Under the pieces are notes generated by a model that saw nothing but the letters and a program-made list of their open reading frames with translations, was not told the origin of the DNA and did not search any database. A stretch of DNA of 64,000 nucleotides from a bacterium HR30 (GTDB lineage: Bacteria > Desulfobacterota > Binatia > HRBIN30), in NCBI GenBank assembly GCA_002898795.1, contig BEIG01000001.1, positions 192 through 64,191 of the forward strand, written 5' to 3'. A program made the position numbers and the translations under genes. Below are positions 41,410-58,083 of this stretch, piece after piece; within the stretch, counting starts at the first letter, position 1, and each line of letters opens with the position of its first letter.

Positions 41410-42174
41410 CTACCGTGCGTTCTGGGTGTCCATCGCCGACTCCTGCGAAACGCACGTAGGGCAGGAGACGACGCTTTCTTTCCCTTTGGGCCACGCGTTC
41501 CACACCGACGCGCCAACGAGCAGTGCGATTCCGCCGTACATCGCAGCGTCGGACTCCAAGACAAACTTACCGAGCAACACGACAACGACCGCCACGAGCC
41601 CCGCGGCAAGTGGACCGTATCCCCAGCGGGTTCGCGCGCGGAACGCCAGCGCACCCACGGCCAGAAGCAGGAACGCTACCGTGAGCGCGAACAGGTACGC
41701 CGTGTCCAGCAGGAACCCCAGCCCCACCGAGCTGAGCAGGCCCGCATACGCTGGCCAGCATGCGGGGCACGCAAGCTTAGGGAGAAATGCGAACGCGATC
41801 CCTGGCGCGGTCGCTAGAGAACTTTGCCATCCCGAAGACAAGGGCTTGCTGATCGGCGATTGGCTGCTGGCGGCACGCAAGGCCTGTGCAATCTGTTCGA
41901 CGGTCGGAACGCCCTGGAGCAAACCGGAACCGCTGCGATACAAACGGCAACTCGAATATCCTGCGCCGGGTGCGACCCCCGCGACATCGCGCCCATCCAC
42001 AAGGATGGTTGGAGACCCGTATCCACGGGCGTAGGCCGGGCACTCCGGTGACTTCTGCTCCCACTCCGTCCACGAAGGTTGAAGCCCGACCAGGCGGAAA
42101 GCCTCGAGGAGCACCTTCCTGGCAGCGTCGACGTTCGGACAAACCTTGTCGTACACCAGCTCGACACGAGTCAT
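41410..42174 (-). CDS. Glutaredoxin-like N-terminal domain fused to a polytopic membrane domain with CPAC and SCPTC motifs
   Basis: VELVYDKVCPNV...SPTILVDGRDVAG is a Grx-like fold. The TM region carries LACPACWPAYAGLL, and the C-terminus carries SCPTC. ATGA overlap with the upstream regulator. Confidence 0.6.
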   Translation of the reverse strand: MTRVELVYDKVCPNVDAARKVLLEAFRLVGLQPSWTEWEQKSPECPAYARGYGSPTILVDGRDVAGVAPGAGYSSCRLYRSGSGLLQGVPTVEQIAQALRAASSQSPISKPLSSGWQSSLATAPGIAFAFLPKLACPACWPAYAGLLSSVGLGFLLDTAYLFALTVAFLLLAVGALAFRARTRWGYGPLAAGLVAVVVVLLGKFVLESDAAMYGGIALLVGASVWNAWPKGKESVVSCPTCVSQESAMDTQNAR

Positions 42175-42584
42175 GATACGTCTTCCTCCGAACCCATGGC
42201 CTCCAGAATCGGGCACTGGCTCACTGGCCCGCTACCCGAGCATTCGCCGATGAGCTTGGTCAGGGCCCTCCGCATCGCCTGAAGCGTTCGGACCTTGTCG
42301 TCGATGTGCTTCACCTTGGCCTTCGCCCGCTCACGAATTTCGCCACATCGGGTTCGAGGCGTGGCACGAAGTGCAAGAAGCTCCTTGATCTCCTTCAGCG
42401 TAAACCCCAGCTCCTGCGCCCGCTTGATGAAGCGCACCCGCAGCACGGCCTCCGCTGGATAAGACCGGTAATTCGACCCCGTGCGAGGCGGCCGGGGCAA
42501 AAGTCCCCGGCGTTCGTAGTAGTAAACCGTTTGCACCTTCACGCCCGCTTGCTTGGCAACTTCACCAATCTTGAGACCTCGCAT
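42171..42584 (-). CDS. MerR-family transcriptional regulator with MerR-type (Hg-binding-like) Cys spacing
   Basis: N-terminal HTH IGEVAKQAGVKVQTVYYYERRGLL. Cys80, Cys115 and Cys124 compare with MerR C82/C117/C126. Confidence 0.85.
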   Translation of the reverse strand: MRGLKIGEVAKQAGVKVQTVYYYERRGLLPRPPRTGSNYRSYPAEAVLRVRFIKRAQELGFTLKEIKELLALRATPRTRCGEIRERAKAKVKHIDDKVRTLQAMRRALTKLIGECSGSGPVSQCPILEAMGSEEDVS

Positions 42585-44744: not shown

Positions 44745-46865
44745 CTACCAAAAGCAGTCGGGAACAGCGGCCGTGCGGCCGAGCACAAGGTCCAGTTGCG
44801 CTAATTCGCGACGCCAGTAACACAGGGTGTGGGCCTTTTGCAGGTAACCGTATTGGTAGAGCGTGGGATTCCGCCCCGCGGCTGTCAGTCGTGCTCCCAT
44901 TGGGTCCAGCAAGGCTGCATGCCGCCGATCGACCACGGACTGGGCCCGCGCAAGTGTCTCCAGCGCGGTAGCCCGCAACCGCTGCGCCGTGTCGGCATCG
45001 CCTCCGGCCACCGCCAGCGCCGCGCGATAAACGCTTTCGATGAACCTGGCCCGTAAGGGCTGCATGGCCAACCCGTCGGAAAGCTCTGCCAACCAGAGAT
45101 TCTCCACTTCCCTCACAGCACCCTGGAACTCCGCAACAACCCGGTCCGATTCTTCGGCCAGCACGGCTAGCGGCTCGAGCACACTCGCTGCAAAACGCGC
45201 CCTTTCGTCTTGAGACCAACGCACGACCTCGCGCAGTTCCGGCCGGTCCGGCTGCGAGTGAATTCCCAGGCGGTCTCCCAAGTCGATGATGGCATCTCGG
45301 CCTGCCAAATATGGCGCCAAACGTTGATGAATGGCTGCGCGAGCCTGCAGTTCTGCCAAGCGTTCGACTGCACTCGCCGCAGCCAAACCCGCTGGTCCCA
45401 TGGGTTCGAAGATGTACCTCGCCAGTTCTTGCCACTGGTTGGGCAAGTGGAAGGACATCCACAAACTCGCCAAGTCATTTTGCCAGTACCCCCACTCCCA
45501 CCCGGAGGAAAAGATGACGTTGGCACGCAACGACGAGGTCGGAGCAAGGCGGCGAATTTCCGCCAAGTCGAGCCAACGGGAGCGGAGGTAAACCGGGAAA
45601 TACAAGGGCACCGAGTTGTCAAACGCAATCCAATAGGCCGACTCGGGATGATAACCCACCGGAACGCCTGCGCGGAGTTTGGTCAATAGGTACTCGCGAT
45701 GCTCGGCAAACTCGTCGTAGTCGTACGCCCCCGCCGCAGGCTCGAACAAATTAAAGTACATCACGGTGTGCACCCACGGCTCGATCGGCACCGACGCAAA
45801 ATCGACGAGGAAATAATACAGTAGTTGTCGTCCGCCGTACTCCACCCGCAAGTTTGGGTAGTTTCCCAAGTGCACGGATGCAGACATCTGCACCCCCGGC
45901 GCGACTCGTTGCAGCGTGTCATAAGCACGCTCCACCATCCGCACAAACGCATCAGGGCTCTCGCCGAAAAATTCGCCAAACGAGAGCATCACCCAGTCGA
46001 AGCGCGCCGCATTGAAAAGAAGCCGCCAACGGTTGACCATGGTTGCGTCCGGATCGGGGTCATCCGGGCGATCGAGGAGGTCGAAAGCGTTTTGCAAGTT
46101 CGAAGAACTGAACAATTGCACAGCGATTCCCACCTGCATGCCGCGGGCATGCGCCGCGTCGACGATCGCTCGGGTGTGAGCGGCCCATTGCTGGTAACGC
46201 TCAGGGTCGCGCGCAATGTCGTTGAGCGCCACCCACTGCACGTAATTGCCGCGGTTCCACGCCACCCAGTCGAGAGTTCGCTGCGCGCGTTCGAAGGCCT
46301 CAGGACCCGTGAGCCAAAAATCGTAGAGCGATTCAATTGGGTGAAGCGTATGGAGTTGTAAGCCCCGCAAAGGGATTTGCGGCTGCTGCAACTGGCCAAA
46401 CGACCGACCCGCGCCTTGCAAGTCGAACACGGCCGGCACAAAGGTACGAAATGGGTGCAAGAACCGCACGCCGAGACTTTCGAACCACGCCGCTAGGCCA
46501 AACACGCAACCCAGCACATCTTCTTGTCCGCAGCGGACCACAGCCGAGGCTGGCACTCCCTGCAAGCGAAAGCACTCCCGACACGGCAGATCTTGTTCCA
46601 CCAACACCTGCAACTCAGCTCCGGAACGTGGAGCGTGGCCGGATCCTTCCGAGTTCTCCACGCGCACGTTCAGCGGGACGGAAGCAACCATCTCCCCAAT
46701 CCGCTGCCGTAAACTCTCCGGCATCCGAACAGAAATCGGCGTTGTCGCTGGCAGGGACGCTTGCTCAACCTCACCATCGTCCCCACATCCGACACCAAAC
46801 CACAGGATAAACCACAGGCACAGAACCCACCGACTTGCCCGCCCCACCACTCGTCCAACTCCCAT
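44745..46865 (-). CDS. Large hypothetical lipoprotein (about 700 aa; possibly glycoside-hydrolase-like, unsupported)
   Basis: MGVGRVVGRASRWVLCLWFILWFGVGC lipobox. ATG at 46863-46865. Confidence 0.6.
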   Translation of the reverse strand: MGVGRVVGRASRWVLCLWFILWFGVGCGDDGEVEQASLPATTPISVRMPESLRQRIGEMVASVPLNVRVENSEGSGHAPRSGAELQVLVEQDLPCRECFRLQGVPASAVVRCGQEDVLGCVFGLAAWFESLGVRFLHPFRTFVPAVFDLQGAGRSFGQLQQPQIPLRGLQLHTLHPIESLYDFWLTGPEAFERAQRTLDWVAWNRGNYVQWVALNDIARDPERYQQWAAHTRAIVDAAHARGMQVGIAVQLFSSSNLQNAFDLLDRPDDPDPDATMVNRWRLLFNAARFDWVMLSFGEFFGESPDAFVRMVERAYDTLQRVAPGVQMSASVHLGNYPNLRVEYGGRQLLYYFLVDFASVPIEPWVHTVMYFNLFEPAAGAYDYDEFAEHREYLLTKLRAGVPVGYHPESAYWIAFDNSVPLYFPVYLRSRWLDLAEIRRLAPTSSLRANVIFSSGWEWGYWQNDLASLWMSFHLPNQWQELARYIFEPMGPAGLAAASAVERLAELQARAAIHQRLAPYLAGRDAIIDLGDRLGIHSQPDRPELREVVRWSQDERARFAASVLEPLAVLAEESDRVVAEFQGAVREVENLWLAELSDGLAMQPLRARFIESVYRAALAVAGGDADTAQRLRATALETLARAQSVVDRRHAALLDPMGARLTAAGRNPTLYQYGYLQKAHTLCYWRRELAQLDLVLGRTAAVPDCFW

Positions 46866-47351
46866 TGCGTTACCCCAGCAATCCCCGGTTGCAAGTGCCA
46901 TTATGCCCAAGATTTCTAACTCTGCAACCACCGTCTGTCACGGTTCAACGTGTGCGTTGCTTCACTGCCGTCGGGCCCCCACCAAGAAATCGGTTACACA
47001 CGCCAACGTCACCGACCGGATGCCCATGCTCTCGATCCGGCTGGCAAGCCTTGGCGATGATCTCGAGCAGGCAAGGTCTCAAAGCCGTCAGAGGCACGGT
47101 ACTTTCCATACCCTCGTTCCGTGGCTGACGGCACATAACGCACAGCGGCGTGCGGAGGAAAACGGCGCGCGGCCTATTCCCTCGCGTTCTGCAGAAGAAT
47201 CCTGAGGCGCCGAGTGTCGCACTAGAGTGCCTGCTCGACGACGCGGAACTCCTTTCCCGCCCTCGAGCGAGAGCCGGTCGGTTCGCCTCCGTGCGACCGT
47301 GCTGGCCAAATCCCTTTGCACCGAACCTGCGTGCCAGGCTAGGGAGCAGTC

Positions 47352-48170: not shown

Positions 48171-48460
48171 TTTCAAACCCGAGGCGAGCAGCGCGCGAAC
48201 ACCCCGCGGCGACAAGCTCGCCGCAGCAATTTCTCTTCTAGAACAAGACCGGCGCAAATTCCTCTGCCGGCCGACGCTCCCGTAGGATCGCGAGCCGAGA
48301 AAAGCCGCCGTTGCCCCAATGCTTCCGCGCTCGCCAACGGCGGCCACAGCATAGCCGCCATCGATAACGGCCATCGAACGATACAATTGGCGGTCCAACT
48401 GCAGCCAACGTTATTTTGTACGCCGCAATCGCAATCTTCATTCGGCAGGAGGTGAACCGT

Positions 48461-49000
48461 ATGCTGACCGTTGGTGATCGTTTTCCCCATTTCCAACTCA
48501 AGGCCGTGGTGAGCCGTGAGCCTGGGCGCGAGTTCGCCGAGCTCACAAACGAAAGTTTCCCTGGAAAGTGGCTTGTCGTGTTTTTCTGGCCCATGGATTT
48601 TACCTTTGTGTGTCCGACAGAAATCGCCGAGTTCGGCCGGCGCGAAGCGGAGTTCCGTGCACGCAACGCGCAAGTCCTTGGCGCTTCCACGGACACACAC
48701 TACGTGCACCTTGCCTGGCGGCAGCAACACCCCGAGCTGCGCGACCTGCCCTTTCCCATGCTCGCGGATACCAAGCGGGAACTCAGCACCGCGCTGGGCA
48801 TTCTGCACAAAGACGAAGGCGTTGCCTTGCGGGCGACATTTATCGTCGACCCGGAAGGCGTCATCCGCTTTGTGAGCGTGAACGATCTCGCCACTGGCCG
48901 CAGTGTCGACGAGGTGCTGCGGGTACTCGCCGCACTTCAGACCAATGAGCTCACACCGTGCAACTGGCGACCAGGGGAACCCACGCTCAAAGTGGCGTAA
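48461..49000 (+). CDS. Peroxiredoxin (AhpC/TSA family)
   Basis: FTFVCPTE peroxidatic Cys motif, with the resolving Cys near the C-terminus (TPCNW). AGGAGGTG RBS. Confidence 0.9.
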   Translation: MLTVGDRFPHFQLKAVVSREPGREFAELTNESFPGKWLVVFFWPMDFTFVCPTEIAEFGRREAEFRARNAQVLGASTDTHYVHLAWRQQHPELRDLPFPMLADTKRELSTALGILHKDEGVALRATFIVDPEGVIRFVSVNDLATGRSVDEVLRVLAALQTNELTPCNWRPGEPTLKVA

Positions 49001-49066: not shown

Positions 49067-49756
49067 ATGAGCGAGCCGTGGTCGCGACGTTCCGTACTCA
49101 AACTCGGGGCTGCCGCTGCCGTAACCTTTTGGGTACGCCGTGCCTCGGGGGAAACCGCACCCTTTGCCCTACCTCCCCTCCCCTGGGAGGAGAACGCCTT
49201 AGCCCCGACCATCTCGGCGCAGACGATTTCGTTCCACTACGGCAAGCACCACCGGGCCTATGTGGAGAACTTGAACAAACTGGTCGCGGGTACCGAGTTC
49301 GCCGACTTACCCCTCGAACGGGTCGTGCAGCAAACAGTGGGAAAGCCTGAGAAGGTGGCCATCTTCAATAACGCGGCGCAAGCTTGGAACCACACATTTT
49401 ACTGGCGGAGCTTGAGCCCGAAAGGTGGGGGCAAACCAACCGGAAAACTTCTGGAACAAATCGAGCAAGACTTTGGCGGATTCGACCAGTTCCGCGCAAA
49501 GTTTGCGCAAGCCGCTGTCGGCCAGTTTGGCAGCGGGTGGGCTTGGCTGGTTAAAAGCAGCGGGCGCTTAGAAATTCTTGCCACGCCCAATGCCGACACG
49601 CCCATCACGATGGGGAAAACGCCGCTGCTCACCATCGACGTGTGGGAACATGCCTACTACCTGGACTACCAAAATCGACGCGGCGATTACGTGAACGCCG
49701 TGATCGACAAACTCCTCAACTGGGAATTTGCCACCCAGCAGTTCACGTCGGCTTAA
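49067..49756 (+). CDS. Fe/Mn superoxide dismutase with twin-arginine (Tat) signal peptide
   Basis: [14 protein letters not shown] Tat motif. HYGKHH and [18 protein letters not shown] signatures. GGGAGGTG RBS. Confidence 0.9.
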
Positions 49757-51459: not shown

Positions 51460-51942
51460 TCACTCCGGCGTATACCGGATCAGAACCCGCTTGCCATCGC
51501 GAAAGCCATGGCGAAAGCTTTCTTCGTAACGCGACCATCCGTCGCGATACTTGGTGGCATATACCTCGAGCATTTTCTCCACCGTAGAGGGCTCGTCGAC
51601 GATGGCCCCTTTTGCATAAAACGTCGGCCCATCGGGCTTACCCACAGCAATCTTCGCTCGCGGCCGCCCCCAACGGATGCGTTTGACCCGCCACGAATCC
51701 GGCCGAGTGCCAACGTAAACAGCGCCCTGATGATACAAAAACCAAATCTCTGCCGGGCGGCTCCACGACCCATCCTTGCGCTGACTGGAGATGTAAACGT
51801 ACTTGCTCGACTCCAATGCTTTGACCAACTCGGGGCTCAAGCCTGCCCGGCTGGGGACGGGAAGGGCGCAGGAGAGGAGGAGCAACAGGAGAGTAGTCCA
51901 CAGGAACGTACGCATCATCACCGATCCTCTCTTTCCAGCCAT
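51460..51942 (-). CDS. Secreted hypothetical protein
   Basis: Signal peptide MMRTFLWTTLLLLLLSCALPVPSRA. Confidence 0.5.
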   Translation of the reverse strand: MAGKRGSVMMRTFLWTTLLLLLLSCALPVPSRAGLSPELVKALESSKYVYISSQRKDGSWSRPAEIWFLYHQGAVYVGTRPDSWRVKRIRWGRPRAKIAVGKPDGPTFYAKGAIVDEPSTVEKMLEVYATKYRDGWSRYEESFRHGFRDGKRVLIRYTPE

Positions 51943-51975: not shown

Positions 51976-52824
51976 TCAAGACAGCTTGCGCTCACCGAAC
52001 TGCTGCCGAAGCTGTTCGCGATACGGGCGGCTCAAGGGGAGCACATTGACCGCGCCGGTGAGGTCGTTCAGATCGACATACACCTCGGTTTCGTAAACCT
52101 CGGTGATATTCTTGTAGGTAATCACTTCCTCGGGAGTGCCGGCGCAAAACACGCGGCCCTGGGAGAGCAACACCACTCGGTCGCAGTAAAGGGCGGCCAA
52201 GTTCAAATCGTGCAAGACGGTCACGATGCTCCGTCCTTCCTCAGCTAGGTCGCGAAGCAAGTCATAAATGGCAACCACGTGGTGCAGGTCGAGAAACGCA
52301 CTCGGCTCATCCAGCAACAACACGGGCGTGTCTTGCGCCAAGGCCCGCGCCAACACCACGCGCTGGCGTTCACCCCCGCTCAACTCTTGCACCATCCGCC
52401 TCGCCAAGTGCGCGACACCCATCCGTTCCATGGCTTCTCGGGCACAGGCAATGTCGGCTTCCGACTCGAAAGCGAAACCACCCAGATAAGGTGCCCGCCC
52501 CATCAACACCATTTCCATCGCCGTAAACGGAAAGTCCACGTGGGTTTCTTGCGGCACCACGGCAATTTGGGTGGCAATCTCCCGCGCGCCGAGCCGCCCG
52601 AGCGGCTCGCCCCACAACTCCACCACTCCTCGCTGCGGTTTCAGCCAACCGCTCAACAATCGGAGCAGTGTCGATTTGCCGGAACCGTTGGGGCCAAGAA
52701 TGCCCAAGATTTGCCCTTTCTCGACTGTAAGGCTCACGTCGCGCAGCACCGCCTCTTCGCTGCGGTAACCAAAGTGCAAGTTCCTGGCTAAAAGCGGAAT
52801 GCGGTTGGGGTCGCTTTGCGCCAT
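51976..52824 (-). CDS. ABC transporter ATP-binding protein, iron-siderophore/heme/cobalamin (FecE/HmuV/BtuD) family
   Basis: GPNGSGKSTLL, LSGGERQRVVLARAL, LLLDEP. No cognate permease or binding-protein gene is adjacent. Confidence 0.85.
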   Translation of the reverse strand: MAQSDPNRIPLLARNLHFGYRSEEAVLRDVSLTVEKGQILGILGPNGSGKSTLLRLLSGWLKPQRGVVELWGEPLGRLGAREIATQIAVVPQETHVDFPFTAMEMVLMGRAPYLGGFAFESEADIACAREAMERMGVAHLARRMVQELSGGERQRVVLARALAQDTPVLLLDEPSAFLDLHHVVAIYDLLRDLAEEGRSIVTVLHDLNLAALYCDRVVLLSQGRVFCAGTPEEVITYKNITEVYETEVYVDLNDLTGAVNVLPLSRPYREQLRQQFGERKLS

Positions 52825-52916
52825 GGCACCTGTTCATGGCACTCCGGGTGTTTCGTGCAAGGGTGGCATACGAAACCCGTTGACCTGCCCATGCCTTTTG
52901 GCCATCGTGGCGCCCG

Positions 52917-54149
52917 ATGAAGAGGTGGCCGATAGTTCGGAGGGTGGTTGCGGCATTGGTGGGTGGCGCGCTTTTGTGGCTGCCTTCCCTGGCACGGTCG
53001 GAACCGTACATTGCGGTGCGCGAGGGGATGCGTTGTAGTTCTTGCCATACCAACGTCACCGGTGGCGGAAAGCGCACGGATCTGGTGAGTACCCATGCCA
53101 AGGATTTGCTGCACTATCCCGATTTCCTCGGACCGTTTTCCCGTCCGCTCGAGTACTTTACCGGCGAGATCAATCCCTACCTCGCTCTTGGCGGCGACCT
53201 CCGCACGAGTGCGACCTTGATTTTCCAGTCCCTCGGGGCCAGCGGCAGGGTGCGCAACGACCAAGTGTTTCGTGGGCGGCTGGAACAGACCCGACTCGAG
53301 ACGACCCAAGCAACCCTTTATGGGGAGCTAAAATTGATTCCCGATCGAGTGACCTTTTACCTCGATCAGCGCTTTCAACCCACCGTAGACAACCGCGAGG
53401 CCTTTGCCCTGCTGAAGGGATTCCTTCCGTGGAACGGGTTTTTCAAAGTCGGACGCATGTTCTTGCCCTATGGCCTCCAGTTGCAAGACGACGAAGCGTT
53501 CATTCGTGGCGGGCGCTCGCGCGGCTCGAGCTCTGCTGCCAGCGGTTTCAGTTTCAATTTGCAAGAGCCGGGAGCGCTCGTGGGCTTCGAGCCGGGCAAC
53601 TGGTCGCTGCTGTTTGCCGTCACCGACGGCAGTGGCGGCGACCGCGATGTTCGCACCGTCGGCACGGTTTACGCGGTATACGACGACGTTCCACTCCTAC
53701 GCACCTTGTTGATCGGTGGCTCGGCATCGCGAGTCGCCCCGCCAAGCGGAGAAACCCTGCTCTTTGGCTTTTTCGCTGGTACGAATTTGGGCCCCGTGAC
53801 GATTTTGGGAGAGGCTGACTTTCGCAGCGACAAAGGGCGCACCACGTTGGGTCGCCGCGTGGGGCAATTCCTCGCCTACGGCGAGGCCAACTATCTGTTA
53901 TTCGGCTGGTTGAACGTGAAGGCCGCGATCGACTACGCCGACAGCGATGGACGGCTAACCCGGCAAGTTGGCGGAGTCACCGTTCTCGACACGGCCAACG
54001 ATGCGGAGCACCGCGTGAGCTTTGGCCTCGAACCATTCTTGAATCGGTTCGTACAACCACGGCTCTTTTATCGCATCAACAACGGGATCCGCTCCGACCC
54101 CACTCACAATCAAAACGTGCTTTTGCTCGAAGCCCACGTGTTTTTCTAA
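52917..54149 (+). CDS. Putative outer-membrane beta-barrel protein with an N-terminal CxxCH motif
   Basis: Signal peptide MKRWPIVRRVVAALVGGALLWLPSLA. MRCSSCH near the mature N-terminus. Alternating amphipathic strands and a C-terminal F. Confidence 0.6.
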   Translation: MKRWPIVRRVVAALVGGALLWLPSLARSEPYIAVREGMRCSSCHTNVTGGGKRTDLVSTHAKDLLHYPDFLGPFSRPLEYFTGEINPYLALGGDLRTSATLIFQSLGASGRVRNDQVFRGRLEQTRLETTQATLYGELKLIPDRVTFYLDQRFQPTVDNREAFALLKGFLPWNGFFKVGRMFLPYGLQLQDDEAFIRGGRSRGSSSAASGFSFNLQEPGALVGFEPGNWSLLFAVTDGSGGDRDVRTVGTVYAVYDDVPLLRTLLIGGSASRVAPPSGETLLFGFFAGTNLGPVTILGEADFRSDKGRTTLGRRVGQFLAYGEANYLLFGWLNVKAAIDYADSDGRLTRQVGGVTVLDTANDAEHRVSFGLEPFLNRFVQPRLFYRINNGIRSDPTHNQNVLLLEAHVFF

Positions 54150-54248: not shown

Positions 54249-54286
54249 GGCGCGGGCCTCCGTCGGGGCCGGCCTTTTGTTTTTTT
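54249..54286 (+). terminator. Rho-independent terminator
   Basis: GC-rich palindrome GGCGCGGGCCTCCGTCGGGGCCGGCC followed by TTTTGTTTTTTT. Confidence 0.45.
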
Positions 54287-54681
54287 CGCCGCGCATGGTG
54301 CCACGGGTTGCGGCTGCTTTTATGCGCGGGAGAGCCTGGCCTCGCCCACGCCTGCGCAGCGACCCGACGGTGCGGTTATAAGCAACGCCACACCCGTGTG
54401 GTTCGAGAAAGCCTTGCTACCAGCGACAACCGACGTAACCCTCGAAACACCAGGCATGGCCGCACACACGACGTGGGCAGCAGCCGAAAGAGTGCAGCGC
54501 AGTGCCGCGCAAGTGCCCGAGCTGCCACCGCATGACGAACACCGAGCGGGCAGCTTTTGGGGAAGTTGTGGAACCGTGGACGAGCTCCGTTGACCGCCGC
54601 GGATCGAAAGCAGCCGGCGCCCGAGGGCTGAGGCCGAGTGTCGCTTGCCACCCTGCTGTGTGCTCGTTAATCCCCCAGCGC

Positions 54682-56278: not shown

Positions 56279-57613
56279 CTAGGGCGTCGGGCTCGCACTC
56301 GCTTCCGGCGAGTCGTGCAGCGCCCTTCGATCGGTGCTTGGCGCTCTGGGGTTGCTTTCGTCCGCGCTCTTCCCCCCACCCGCGGGTTTTCCAGAAGGCC
56401 CGAACTCCTGAAACAGCTTCACCACCAGCGACGCTACCTCCCCCGGCTTGGCCGTGAGCACCTCCCGCCTCAATTGCTCGAAGCGGCGCGGCGACAAACG
56501 ATGGGCCAGCTCTATCCGAGCTCTCAAATCCCGAACGGTGTCGTCTCTTACGAACCTCACAAACTCGAGTTCCTTTTCGCTCATCTCGCCCAACTTGGGG
56601 CCATACAACCGAGCAAGGTCGAAGTACGTGTCGTAATCGGCGTAGAATTTCGCTTTGATGAGCAACCACACTAGCTCATTTTCCGGATCGGCCAGCAGAT
56701 TCCGCCACGCCCTGCTGCAAGCCTGATCCCCAGGTTCCTCGCCAAAACAACGGGCAGCCATGTAATAGGACAACGCTAACGGAGCCGCCAGGTGGGGGCT
56801 ACGTCTTTCCACTTCTCTTGTAAAGGCGTCCCGAAACGCTCCGCACTTTTCTACGGTGCTGTCAGCAAGGCAAGAGGCTAACTTTTCGCCCACTTCAGGG
56901 CCAAGCTCGCTCAACGATCCTCTGGGAATTCGCAAGCTAAAGGGGCGCGGGGTTAGAGCTTGCCCGTTCTCGACCCAGGCCTTCCTTGCCATGTCGGCCC
57001 AGACTACCTGTTCGCGAAGCAACTCCACAAGTCCCGGGTCGCCATGTTCTTTCGCCTCTTCCCATTGGCGCACCGTTTCGTTCTGCAAGAGTTCGAACCG
57101 TTCGGGGTCCAGGCGGGCCGCAACCTCGAAGACGTACCTAGCTCTCACCGGGTCATTACCGCCCACCTGCGCCCGCCGCACCGCCCGGAGGTAGCTCCAA
57201 AAGATCTCCGTTTGCCGCTTCTTCAAAAGAGCCAAGTAACGTTCCCCCATCTGTCTTAGCTTGTCCTTCCAAACCTCTTGCTCCTTCATATCCCATTCGG
57301 GTGGGCTGTCGAAAAAGGGGTAATGATAGATGGCTCGCTGGATGGCATCGTAATGGTCCAAGGCACAATACGGGAAGAGCGCCCCGGAGCGCGTGCACAT
57401 TTCGAACTGGAGCCGGTACACCACCAGTGCCGAAACAAAGCCATAGCCGGACAGTCCATGGAGCGGGCGCTCCTGCAGCGGCTTTTTCAGCCATCGTTCG
57501 AGGAGCTTCACGGAGAAGTCAACGCTGGAATCATCGCTCGCCCCACCTCGTTGAGGACCGCCCGCAAGTCCTGCAACCGCTACCAGCAACAGGGGCAAAA
57601 GCAAGCGCCTCAT
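56279..57613 (-). CDS. Secreted hypothetical protein
   Basis: Signal peptide MRRLLLPLLLVAVAGLAGG and a strong AGGAGGTG RBS. No known domain. Confidence 0.55.
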   Translation of the reverse strand: MRRLLLPLLLVAVAGLAGGPQRGGASDDSSVDFSVKLLERWLKKPLQERPLHGLSGYGFVSALVVYRLQFEMCTRSGALFPYCALDHYDAIQRAIYHYPFFDSPPEWDMKEQEVWKDKLRQMGERYLALLKKRQTEIFWSYLRAVRRAQVGGNDPVRARYVFEVAARLDPERFELLQNETVRQWEEAKEHGDPGLVELLREQVVWADMARKAWVENGQALTPRPFSLRIPRGSLSELGPEVGEKLASCLADSTVEKCGAFRDAFTREVERRSPHLAAPLALSYYMAARCFGEEPGDQACSRAWRNLLADPENELVWLLIKAKFYADYDTYFDLARLYGPKLGEMSEKELEFVRFVRDDTVRDLRARIELAHRLSPRRFEQLRREVLTAKPGEVASLVVKLFQEFGPSGKPAGGGKSADESNPRAPSTDRRALHDSPEASASPTP

Positions 57614-57675
57614 TGTCGTGTGCACCTCCTGGAGACTACCACACTCCCTCGTCACTGCGCATAGTACAACTGCAC

Positions 57676-58083
57676 CTAGTCCCACCGGCAACCAGGGCAC
57701 TCAGCACGCGTACCCTTCAGCACCCATTTCGGCACCCACGTCTTCCCATATGGCGGGCCCCAATCGTATTTGAAATAGTCCGCCTCGTTGCCCGGGGCCG
57801 GCAGGGATGCCGCCGTCAAACTGCGCACCGATATAAAATGCGTCGGCCCTTTCGGGTTCCCGATACCCGTTCTCAGGAACTCCTCGGCCAAGGCGAAATC
57901 CTCCGCGGTCGGAACGAGCTTCGGGTTCGGGCTCCTGCAGCCAACGTAAGCGCTGCACACATCCGCTACACTGGTAGTTCCCCTCCGTGCCATGCGGTTG
58001 AGCACCGTTTGCAAGATCGCTCGCCGCTCCTCCGCGCGGCACTGCTGCGAGCCACATTCGTTGGCCAGCAACCTCCCCAACAT
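57676..58083 (-). CDS. Putative cell-wall hydrolase (SleB/CwlJ Hydrolase_2-like)
   Basis: AILQTVLNRM and GPTHF resemble the Hydrolase_2 LNR and GATHY motifs. Weak support. Confidence 0.45.
   Translation of the reverse strand: MLGRLLANECGSQQCRAEERRAILQTVLNRMARRGTTSVADVCSAYVGCRSPNPKLVPTAEDFALAEEFLRTGIGNPKGPTHFISVRSLTAASLPAPGNEADYFKYDWGPPYGKTWVPKWVLKGTRAECPGCRWD

What the first reader, a model, noticed from the sequence alone, without database searches (positions are those of the whole stretch)
52917..54149. Outer-membrane beta-barrel-like protein carrying a CxxCH heme-attachment motif, divergent from an orphan iron-type ABC ATPase
Seen in sequence: signal peptide, then MRCSSCH (CxxCH) within 15 residues of the predicted mature N-terminus. 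The rest has an alternating-strand pattern and ends in ...HVFF, a C-terminal aromatic typical of OMPs. Established knowledge: CxxCH is the covalent heme-binding motif of c-type cytochromes. Inference: a heme-bearing or metal-binding porin-like protein, perhaps iron/heme related given the divergent FecE/HmuV-type ATPase (51976-52824). That ATPase has no permease or binding-protein gene nearby.
Basis: partly seen in the sequence, partly recalled or inferred. Interest (0 to 1): 0.5.

Follow-up and report, generated by a model that had tools for sequence, protein, structure and literature searches.

The report
Heme-carrying outer-membrane porin, Cyc2 relative
The gene encodes an outer-membrane pore protein with a built-in heme attachment site, one member of a large unnamed family distantly related to the bacterial iron-oxidising protein Cyc2, so it probably moves electrons across the outer membrane; what it acts on has not been tested.

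Summary
ORF 52917-54149 (+) encodes 410 aa: a signal peptide, CSSCH at residues 40-44 (the protein's only two cysteines), and a C-terminal HVFF.

CxxCH is invariant in every full-length homolog examined. A profile search finds 947 clusters (50% identity) across many phyla. All named members are 'hypothetical' and there is no Pfam or NCBIfam model.

The family motif is A-E-P-Y-x-A-V-R-x-G-x-K-CxxCH-x-N-x-T-G-G-G-x-R. It has the same Pro(-10)/Ala(-7)/Gly(-3) spacing as the Cyc2 motif AxPxFAR[QK][TY]GxxCxxCH. Profile-profile comparison with motif-defined Cyc2 sequences gives 98% probability (E 5e-14; reversed control 0.6%).

The published Cyc2 motifs (FAR[QK][TY], PxL) are absent, and a Cyc2 HMM scores the protein at 8 bits.

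Elsewhere the family usually sits in an operon with a PSCyt1-type cytochrome lipoprotein. None is present in this window.

The neighbouring HmuV/FecE-type ATPase is indeed orphan, but the pairing occurs only in very close relatives.

Verdict: a fused monoheme cytochrome-porin from an undescribed sister family of Cyc2. The redox-conduit role is inferred; the substrate is unknown.

The parts
52917..54149 (+). Gene for the fused heme-porin (410 aa plus stop)
   Evidence: ORF list and sequence. More than 269 homologs. 947 representative clusters with E<=1e-3.
52917..53000 (+). Signal peptide (aa 1-28), predicted cleavage ARS|EPY
   Evidence: Read from the sequence. The family-wide A-x-A|E-P-Y junction has A 83%, E 94%, P 98% and Y 86% in 117 representatives. 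pLDDT is below 50 only at residues 21-28.
53001..53165 (+). N-terminal heme-binding module (aa 29-83): EPYIAVREGMR-CSSCH-TNVTGGGKR, then short helices
   Evidence: This is the most conserved segment of the family. pLDDT is about 90 with the deep alignment, with helices at 30-36, 40-43, 55-65 and 69-75. It aligns to the Cyc2 cytochrome motif.
53034..53048 (+). CxxCH (C40-S-S-C43-H44), predicted covalent heme c attachment site with proximal His
   Evidence: Invariant in all alignments. The only two Cys in the protein. Six-frame scan.
53061..53075 (+). G49-G-G-K-R53 loop after the heme motif. It takes the place of the PxL motif of Cyc2.
   Evidence: G49 and R53 are invariant and G50/G51 nearly so. 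hhalign places a 3-residue indel here relative to Cyc2.
53166..54146 (+). 16-strand beta-barrel (aa 84-410), OprP-like
53463..53561 (+). Long loop between strands 5 and 6 (aa 183-215): LPYGLQLQDDEAFIRGG... Its position corresponds to the L3 constriction loop of general porins.
   Evidence: Best-conserved part of the barrel: P184, Y185, G186, D191, D192 and R197 are invariant or nearly so. The L3 assignment is inferred from strand order.
53946..54005 (+). Clade-specific insertion (aa 344-363) forming a short hairpin in an extracellular loop
   Evidence: Present only in the closest relatives in alignment A1. Lower pLDDT, 66-71. It explains the apparent 17-18 strand elements.
54129..54146 (+). 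C-terminal strand end E405-A-H407-V-F-F410: outer-membrane-protein signature with nearly invariant E405 and H407
   Evidence: E405 is nearly invariant in A1 and H407 in both A1 and A2. That they face the lumen is inferred from the alternating residue pattern.
52825..52916 (.). 92-bp divergent intergenic region, with TTGACC and TTTTGGCCATCGTGGCGC conserved in the 86%-identical relative
   Evidence: Alignment A3. The consensus promoter scan found nothing, so promoter function is only a guess.
54255..54287 (+). Terminator-like GC hairpin followed by a T-run, about 105 nt after the stop codon. This suggests a monocistronic unit.
   Evidence: and the sequence.
51976..52824 (-). Divergent neighbour: orphan HmuV/FecE/BtuD-type ABC ATPase. 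Listed as context, not shown to belong to the system.
   Evidence: Pfam and NCBIfam. Pairing kept only in close relatives (against 16, 17).

Best explanation
The gene encodes a fused monoheme cytochrome c-porin of the outer membrane.

Proposed mechanism:
- After Sec export and signal-peptide cleavage (ARS|EPY), the cytochrome c maturation system attaches heme covalently to C40/C43, with H44 as the proximal ligand.
- The roughly 55-residue N-terminal module packs at or inside the periplasmic mouth of an OprP-like 16-strand barrel.
- The protein then works as a one-heme redox gate. A small dissolved redox-active species enters the narrow, acid-lined pore and exchanges an electron with the heme. 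By analogy with Cyc2 this species is most likely Fe2+.
- The heme passes the electron to a periplasmic cytochrome, or takes one from it. In most members of the family that partner is a PSCyt1-type cytochrome lipoprotein encoded next door. In this genome the partner must be encoded elsewhere.

The protein belongs to a large, unnamed family that is a remote homolog (a sister family) of Cyc2.

Shown here: the ORF, motif conservation, barrel fold, family size and spread, remote homology to motif-defined Cyc2, and partner synteny in the wider family.

Inferred: heme attachment, position of the heme, direction of electron flow, and the substrate.
For: 1. CxxCH is invariant, and it holds the only two cysteines, in an otherwise Cys-free outer-membrane protein.
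3. Both families place the motif directly after the signal peptide with the same spacing: Pro -10, Ala -7 and Gly -3 from the first Cys, with an F-G pair a few residues after the heme motif.
4. hhalign of the 87-sequence family profile against 75 motif-defined Cyc2 sequences gives Prob 98.2%, E 4.7e-14 over 332 columns. Without signal peptides it gives 97.2%, E 2.9e-11. The mature N-terminal peptide alone gives 96.1%, E 2.8e-9. The barrel alone gives 80%, E 1.4e-5. Reversed-sequence controls give 0.6% and 3.4%.
5. In at least 67 of 123 loci a lipoprotein carrying IQxxVFTPxC(x2 or x4)CH lies adjacent, usually just upstream on the same strand and often with a 4-nt overlap. Some of these match PSCyt1 (PF07635). 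This fits a two-component outer-membrane/periplasm electron relay.
6. The gene looks like a self-contained unit with a terminator-like hairpin downstream.
Against: - No experiment shows heme binding or redox activity for any member of this family.
- The defining Cyc2 motifs are absent (EPYIAVRE instead of PxFAR[QK][TY]; TNVTGGGKR instead of xxxPxL). A Cyc2 HMM gives the window protein only 8.4 bits, so function cannot simply be transferred.
- The organisms named for the genome loci are mostly MAGs of Steroidobacteraceae, Roseateles, Cellvibrionaceae, Gemmatimonadota, Latescibacterota and Binatia. To my knowledge these are not classical iron oxidisers.
- No cytochrome partner and no other credible CxxCH gene exist in the 64-kb window.
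- Barrel-only homology to Cyc2 is modest (80%), so part of the signal could come from the shared porin superfamily.
- My Cyc2 comparison set was defined by the published motif on metagenome contigs, not by tested proteins.
- I could not inspect model coordinates, and the model contains no heme, so the position of the heme relative to the pore is inferred.
Confidence: 0.65

Rival explanations
1. It is an electron conduit of the same architecture but not an Fe(II) oxidase. It might work in the reductive direction (Fe(III) chelates, Mn oxides, humic quinones). It might serve iron acquisition or detoxification, for example controlling Fe2+ or peroxide at the cell surface. It might use another small substrate.
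For: The named host lineages are, to my knowledge, mostly aerobic heterotrophs. The motif after the heme differs from Cyc2 (GGG-x-R instead of PxL), and no Met is conserved. The only other nearly invariant His is H407, so bis-His ligation is possible. From general knowledge, bis-His ligation usually gives lower potentials than His/Met. The conserved partner is a PSCyt1 lipoprotein that often carries a Big_5/CopC-like domain, not Cyc1 or rusticyanin. In this window a peroxiredoxin and an exported SOD lie 3-4 kb upstream, which may be coincidence.
Against: Nothing tested here distinguishes direction or substrate. The only characterised relatives (Cyc2, Cyt572) oxidise Fe(II) (PMC8406198; PMC5566968). 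The SOD/peroxiredoxin neighbourhood is not kept in the 86%-identical relative.
Confidence: 0.25
2. One reading: a heme- or iron-uptake channel working with the divergent HmuV/FecE-type ABC ATPase. The CxxCH would bind transported heme or metal rather than a prosthetic heme.
For: The ATPase passes the NCBIfam heme-ABC cut-off. It is followed by an exported PNPOx/DUF2255-like protein, a fold that includes heme-degrading enzymes (my own knowledge). The arrangement is kept in the 86%-identical relative and on the protein's own contig.
Against: The pairing is absent at 56-62% identity, and no ABC-ATPase cluster was among the recurrent neighbour clusters inspected in the 120 loci of the wider family. 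No permease or binding protein is nearby. Known heme uptake across the outer membrane uses TonB-dependent 22-strand receptors, not 16-strand porins (general knowledge). An invariant CxxCH 12 residues from a fixed mature N-terminus is the signature of covalent heme attachment.
Confidence: 0.07
3. It is simply a divergent true Cyc2, with the same family and function, and the motif differences are within family drift.
For: The architecture is identical, the Pro/Ala/Gly spacing is the same, and hhalign probability is 98%. Recognised Cyc2 clusters themselves share significant similarity only at the N-terminus (PMC5566968).
Against: It fails both published defining motifs. Cross-HMM scores are at most 29 bits, and 8.4 bits for this protein. 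The family has its own invariant residues (N46, G49-G51, R53) and a different conserved partner.
Confidence: 0.1
4. It is an ordinary diffusion porin, and the CxxCH is a non-heme feature such as a disulfide or a metal site.
For: A few family members weakly match Porin_4, BBP2 or Porin_O_P. The barrel resembles general porins.
Against: C, C and H are all invariant across 25-89% identity together with a 25-residue surrounding motif. A disulfide would not need the His. The family is homologous to a proven heme protein family. UniProt's automatic rule also calls a member a cytochrome c domain protein.
Confidence: 0.03

Closest known systems
Cyc2 / Cyc2PV-1 / Cyt572 fused cytochrome-porins (Fe(II) oxidases of Acidithiobacillus, Zetaproteobacteria, Gallionellaceae, Leptospirillum)
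   Same: Both have a signal peptide, a single CxxCH about 11 residues after the cleavage site, and an OprP-like 16-strand barrel of about 400-500 aa. Pro(-10), Ala(-7) and Gly(-3) sit at the same distances from the first Cys. Profile-profile homology is 98%.
   Different: This protein lacks FAR[QK][TY] and PxL. It has E-P-Y...V-R and N-x-T-G-G-G-x-R instead, with a 3-residue indel after the heme motif. A Cyc2 HMM scores it at 8.4 bits. The family's conserved partner is a PSCyt1 lipoprotein rather than Cyc1 or rusticyanin. The named host lineages are not, to my knowledge, known iron oxidisers. No function has been tested.
OprP/OprO phosphate-selective porins (PDB 2O4V, 4RJW) and general 16-strand trimeric porins (OmpF, PorB, Omp32)
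   Different: Sequence identity is 9-15%. The window protein has no Pfam Porin_O_P hit. Those porins have no heme motif. The conserved pore-loop residues here are acidic (DD) rather than an arginine ladder (the comparison with OprP rests on the PDB entry title and general knowledge).
MtrAB/MtoAB/PioAB porin-cytochrome complexes
   Same: They share the concept: a beta-barrel that lets heme-mediated electrons cross the outer membrane, with a periplasm-facing cytochrome partner.
PSCyt1 (PF07635, 'Planctomycete cytochrome C') domain proteins
   Same: The family's recurrent neighbour carries this domain, with IQxxVFTPxCxxCH.
   Different: It is a separate gene, and it is not present in this window. 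In the subclade that contains the window protein it uses a C-x4-CH variant and lies downstream on the opposite strand.

Membership tests
Cyc2 fused cytochrome-porin (as defined in Keffer et al. 2021, PMC8406198) | N-terminal signal peptide | tested here: met
   Sequence. Conserved A-x-A|EPY junction.
Cyc2 fused cytochrome-porin | Single CxxCH near the N-terminus | tested here: met
   C40-x-x-C43-H44, the only such motif and the only Cys residues.
Cyc2 fused cytochrome-porin | 16-strand porin resembling OprO/OprP; length at least 365 aa | tested here: met
Cyc2 fused cytochrome-porin | AxPxFAR[Q/K][T/Y] motif upstream of CxxCH | tested here: not met
   The sequence is S-E-P-Y-I-A-V-R-E, and the family consensus is A-E-P-Y-x-A-V-R-x. 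Only A, P and the second A coincide.
Cyc2 fused cytochrome-porin | PxL motif about 4 residues after CxxCH | tested here: not met
   CH is followed by T-N-V-T-G-G-G-K-R, with no Pro. The family consensus is x-N-x-T-G-G-G-x-R.
Cyc2 fused cytochrome-porin | Recognised by Cyc2 HMMs (FeGenie clusters 1-3) | tested here: inconclusive
   FeGenie models were not available. An HMM I built from 75 motif-defined Cyc2 sequences gives the window protein 8.4 bits, and the best of the 87 family members in A2 24.5 bits.
Cyc2 fused cytochrome-porin | Covalent heme and Fe(II) oxidation activity | not testable with these tools
   Needs expression, heme staining and redox assays.
Cyc2-containing superfamily (remote homology) | Significant profile-profile similarity covering both the heme module and the barrel | tested here: met
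   hhalign 98.2%, E 4.7e-14, 332 columns. Controls with reversed sequences give 0.6%.
OprP/OprO phosphate porin (Pfam Porin_O_P PF07396) | Match to the family HMM | tested here: not met
   No Pfam hit for the window protein. Only 3 of 87 family members match weakly, best E 7.6e-4.
MtrB/PioB/MtoB porin of porin-cytochrome complexes | 26-strand barrel next to a decaheme cytochrome gene | tested here: not met
HmuV/FecE-type iron/heme ABC importer (operon with the neighbour) | ATPase together with a FecCD permease and a binding protein, conserved next to the porin | tested here: not met
   No permease found. The pairing is lost at 56-62% identity.

The most novel reading that the evidence does not exclude
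This is the first look at a second, very widespread family of single-heme cytochrome-porin fusions. A profile search finds about 950 clusters at 50% identity. Members occur in Binatia, Steroidobacteraceae, Burkholderiales such as Roseateles and Rhodoferax, Cellvibrionaceae, Gemmatimonadota, Latescibacterota, Acidobacteriota, Myxococcota, Bacteroidota and Fibrobacterota.

The Cyc2 HMM I built here does not detect it, so marker-gene surveys based on Cyc2 models may miss it. It has its own dedicated periplasmic partner, a PSCyt1 lipoprotein. It may also coordinate heme differently from Cyc2: no PxL, no conserved Met, a fixed free N-terminus E-P-Y at -11 from the first Cys, and a nearly invariant lumen-facing His at the C-terminus.

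If these proteins are active outer-membrane electron gates, single-heme extracellular electron exchange would be common in soil and freshwater lineages not known for iron oxidation.
Probability: 0.45. Interest if true: 0.75.

Novelty: new variant of a known kind. Interest (0 to 1): 0.62.

Why it matters
Cyc2 is the main genetic marker used to infer microbial Fe(II) oxidation in genomes and metagenomes. This family has the same architecture and is demonstrably related to Cyc2. Databases call it 'hypothetical', and the published Cyc2 motif screen would exclude it. If it is redox-active, current surveys may undercount organisms able to exchange electrons across the outer membrane. The set of possible substrates and partners would also be wider than Fe(II) with Cyc1.

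The family is experimentally tractable. It occurs in cultured Roseateles/Paucibacter strains (R3-3, DJ1R-11, DJ2R-2), and the E. coli expression and assay scheme used for Cyc2PV-1 could be reused directly. For Binatia, a class known to me only from uncultured MAGs, it adds a candidate for extracellular redox chemistry.

Tried and rejected
- Pfam and NCBIfam scans of the protein found nothing. A profile search of PDB sequences gave no real hit.
- tblastn against plasmids found no match.
- The afdb50 fold library was unavailable.
I replaced it with a degenerate DNA motif scan of genome contigs.
- Supplementary files of the Cyc2 paper held no sequences. I therefore collected Cyc2 sequences from metagenome contigs using the published motif as a DNA pattern.
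- Literature searches for Cyc2 together with Binatia, Binatota or Steroidobacteraceae, and for 'Cyc2-like' or 'distant homolog', turned up no description of this family.
- I searched the whole window in six frames for a partner cytochrome (C-x2-4-CH). Only the target is credible; the other matches lie in ORFs without a Pfam-supported domain over the motif.
- I considered an operator in the divergent intergenic region. The 7-bp inverted repeat GTTTCGT...ACGAAAC is not conserved in the 86%-identical relative, and the consensus promoter scan found nothing.
I rejected this count because residues 347-358 are a clade-specific loop insertion. The barrel has 16 strands.
- The link to the ABC ATPase is not supported, on synteny.
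Full report
**Observation**

The ORF at 52917-54149 (+) exists and encodes 410 aa. It begins with a typical Sec signal peptide (MKRWPIVRRVVAALVGGALLWLPSLARS) followed by EPYIAVREGMRCSSCH. The CxxCH is at residues 40-44 (nt 53034-53048), residues 12-16 of the predicted mature protein. C40 and C43 are the only cysteines in the protein. The C-terminus is EAHVFF.

The divergent neighbour 51976-52824 (-) is an ABC ATPase. It passes the NCBIfam cut-off for heme ABC transporter ATPases (267.3 against 261 bits) and scores strongly with the corrinoid and FecE models. No FecCD-type permease is in the 64-kb window: the only multi-TM ORFs are BPD_transp_1 and ABC-2 types. Nothing resembling a binding protein was found among the ORFs I scanned between 39 and 64 kb.

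**Conservation**

The protein has no Pfam or NCBIfam match but many homologs. The word-indexed search found 269 with E<=1e-3, all called 'hypothetical'; the named ones are from Candidatus Binatia or 'Deltaproteobacteria' MAGs. A profile search of 1.84 billion cluster representatives found 947 with E<=1e-3 and 521 with E<=1e-10.

C40, C43 and H44 are invariant in 34 sequences down to 53% identity and in 87 sequences down to 25% identity. Every full-length representative carries the CxxCH just after its signal peptide.

In 117 representatives the surrounding motif, numbered from the first Cys, is:
- upstream: A(-12), E(-11, 94%), P(-10, 98%), Y(-9, 86%), hydrophobic(-8), A(-7, 90%), V(-6), R(-5, 80%), x, G(-3, 93%), x, K(-1);
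- then C-x-x-C-H;
- downstream: x, N(100%), x, T, G(100%), G, G, x, R(100%), x, x, F, G.

In 64 of 87 members the mature protein has only the two motif cysteines.

**Fold**

AlphaFold2 with 34 sequences gave mean pLDDT 77.6. With 87 sequences it gave 89.9 and pTM 0.86. In the second model the N-terminal module is also confident, about 90 for residues 31-60, with short helices at 30-36 and at the CxxC turn 40-43.

DSSP lists 18 strand elements. Residues 347-358 are a hairpin inside an insertion found only in the closest relatives (alignment A1) and have lower confidence. The barrel therefore has 16 strands. A long, highly conserved loop (LPYGLQLQDDEAFIRGG, residues 183-215) lies between strands 5 and 6, where general porins have the L3 constriction loop.

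**Relation to Cyc2**

Keffer et al. 2021 (PMC8406198) define Cyc2 by these features:
- a signal peptide;
- one CxxCH;
- a 16-strand porin modelled on OprO/OprP;
- at least 365 aa;
- an AxPxFAR[Q/K][T/Y] motif before the CxxCH;
- a PxL motif after it.

The window protein meets the architectural criteria but not the two sequence motifs.

To test homology directly, I scanned metagenome contigs with the published motif written as a DNA pattern. This gave 75 complete proteins with A-[IV]-P-[AS]-F-A-R-[QK]-[TY]-G-x-x-C-x-x-C-H-x-x-x-P-x-L-x-x-F-G and C-terminal aromatic ends. In these proteins Pro, Ala and Gly lie at -10, -7 and -3 from the first Cys, exactly as in the new family.

hhalign of the 87-sequence profile against this Cyc2 alignment gave the following results:

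| Comparison | Probability | E-value |
|---|---|---|
| Full length (332 aligned columns, heme module and barrel) | 98.2% | 4.7e-14 |
| Both sides without signal peptides | 97.2% | 2.9e-11 |
| Mature N-terminal peptides only | 96.1% | 2.8e-9 |
| Barrels only | 80% | 1.4e-5 |
| Full length, Cyc2 reversed (control) | 0.6% | - |
| Mature N-terminal peptides, Cyc2 reversed (control) | 3.4% | - |

The full-length alignment places a 3-residue indel after the heme motif.

Plain HMM cross-searches give at most 29 bits, and 8.4 bits for the window protein against the Cyc2 HMM. A Cyc2 HMM of this kind would therefore not detect the family at database scale.

I conclude that this is a remote homolog, a sister family of Cyc2, and not a member of Cyc2 as currently defined. 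One caveat applies: my Cyc2 set is defined by motif, not by experiment, and I could not run FeGenie's own models.

**Distribution and names**

Every locus carries a 350-430 aa ORF with the same organisation.

Hosts include Steroidobacteraceae, Cellvibrionaceae, Marinimicrobium, Psychrosphaera, Nevskia, Roseateles, Rhodoferax, other Burkholderiales, Binatia, Latescibacterota, Gemmatimonadota, Acidobacteriota, Myxococcales, Bacteroidota and Fibrobacteria. Cultured carriers include Roseateles agri (Paucibacter sp. R3-3) and Paucibacter spp. DJ1R-11 and DJ2R-2.

RefSeq calls the protein 'hypothetical protein'. UniProt's automatic rule calls it 'Cytochrome c domain-containing protein'. A few members weakly match Porin_4, BBP2 or Porin_O_P. 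I found no paper describing the family.

**Genomic context**

Clustering all ORFs of the 123 loci showed one strongly recurrent neighbour. It is a lipoprotein with IQxxVFTPxCxxCH, or a C-x4-CH variant. It lies immediately upstream on the same strand, often with a 4-nt overlap, in at least 67 of 123 loci. This count is a lower bound, because many loci are cut short.

Pfam assigns some of these partners to PSCyt1 (PF07635), often with a Big_5/CopC-like Ig domain. CHRD+Big_7 lipoproteins with CxxCH also recur.

The window protein belongs to a subclade marked by H-A-[RK]-D-x-L-H-Y-P after the heme motif. In 7 of its 17 loci the partner (C-x4-CH type) is present: in six it lies within 460 bp downstream on the opposite strand, and in one it is 3.2 kb away. 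The other ten loci, including the window, have none in the stretch held. A six-frame scan of the full 64 kb found no other credible heme-motif gene.

The local arrangement is PD40 - DUF2255-like - ABC ATPase, divergent from the porin, then DUF1820, then an SDR on the opposite strand. It is kept in the 86%-identical Binatia genome GCA_026004215.1 and on the protein's own metagenome contig. It is not kept in homologs at 62% and 56% identity, and no ABC-ATPase cluster appeared among the recurrent neighbour clusters inspected in the wider family. The ATPase adjacency is therefore lineage-level synteny, not a conserved functional pairing. A terminator-like hairpin with a T-run 105 nt after the stop suggests the gene is transcribed alone.

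**Mechanism (inferred)**

The conserved facts are these:
- a fixed signal-peptide junction;
- an invariant CxxCH in a Cys-free outer-membrane protein;
- a confidently modelled N-terminal module ahead of strand 1;
- a narrow OprP-like barrel with a conserved acidic loop;
- a cytochrome lipoprotein partner in most genomes;
- homology to a proven outer-membrane Fe(II)-oxidising heme protein.

Together they point to a one-heme redox gate. The heme would sit at or in the periplasmic mouth of the pore. A small dissolved redox species would reach it through the pore, and a periplasmic cytochrome would complete the relay. By analogy the substrate is most likely Fe2+.

Three things caution against transferring 'Fe(II) oxidase' directly. 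PxL is replaced by N-x-T-G-G-G-x-R. No Met is conserved, while the C-terminal His407 is nearly invariant and probably faces the lumen. The host range consists largely of lineages not known for iron oxidation. Direction and substrate remain open.

The fixed free N-terminus (E-P-Y at -11 to -9) recalls the alpha-amino heme ligation of cytochrome f. That comparison rests on my own knowledge and is untested.

**Verdict**

The reading as a heme-porin is supported, and the iron-ABC link is not. The protein is a fused monoheme cytochrome-porin from a large, unannotated sister family of Cyc2, which makes it a new variant of a known kind. Interest is moderate to high for people working on extracellular electron transfer and iron-cycling marker genes. 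It depends on experimental proof of heme binding and redox activity.

Noticed in passing
window 51460-51942 (-) and 51976-52824 (-); L124 8547-9898: The orphan HmuV/FecE-type ATPase is followed on the same strand by a small exported PNPOx/DUF2255-like protein with a lipobox-like LLLLSC. In the 86%-identical relative the two genes overlap by 4 nt. An ABC ATPase coupled to a split-barrel protein, with no permease, is odd. Some proteins of that fold degrade heme (my own knowledge).
   Followed up: partly
window 48416-49000 (+) and 49067-49756 (+): A peroxiredoxin (AhpC-TSA) lies next to an Fe/Mn superoxide dismutase that carries an N-terminal export signal resembling a twin-arginine signal ([13 protein letters not shown]). 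This suggests an exported SOD, 3-4 kb upstream of the heme-porin. The pair is present on the protein's own contig but not in the 86%-identical relative.
   Followed up: partly
L005-L123 (e.g. L015 5269-6126 -, L014 4475-4930 -, L027 6698-7261 -): A conserved partner gene of the family encodes a lipoprotein with IQxxVFTPxCxxCH. Some match PSCyt1, often with a Big_5/CopC-like domain. It is usually translationally coupled upstream of the porin. In the subclade containing the window protein it has a C-x4-CH motif and lies downstream on the opposite strand.
   Followed up: yes
L009 1940-5194 (+), L030 6088-7602 (+), L031 2259-3773 (+): Large lipoproteins with Big_7 and one to six CHRD domains plus a CxxCH recur next to the porin-partner pair in gammaproteobacterial loci. 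The function of CHRD domains in bacteria is unknown to me.
   Followed up: partly
proteins P0184, P0216, P0221, P0229, P0234, P0258, P0266: A subset of the family carries a second CxxCH about 85 residues after the first. These would be diheme cytochrome-porin fusions.
   Followed up: no
L106 905-2986 (+): The partner-type and porin-type heme motifs lie in one 693-aa open frame. This is either a natural fusion of partner and porin or an assembly or frameshift error in the MAG.
   Followed up: no
window 54255-54287 (+): A GC-rich hairpin (GGCCTCCGTCGGGGCC) followed by a T-run lies about 105 nt after the porin stop codon. It looks like an intrinsic terminator.
   Followed up: partly
window 56279-57700 (-) and 44745-46931 (-): Two long ORFs (473 and 728 aa) have no Pfam match. 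I did not check whether the 728-aa frame is the coding one.
   Followed up: no
window 41410-42216 (-): An ORF with a MerC-like domain (PF03203, mercury resistance membrane protein family; E 5e-7).
   Followed up: no
window 52852-52878 (+): A 7-bp inverted repeat GTTTCGT-N13-ACGAAAC lies in the divergent intergenic region. It is not conserved in the 86%-identical relative, whereas TTGAC/AC and TTTTGGCCATCGTGGCGC nearby are conserved.
   Followed up: partly
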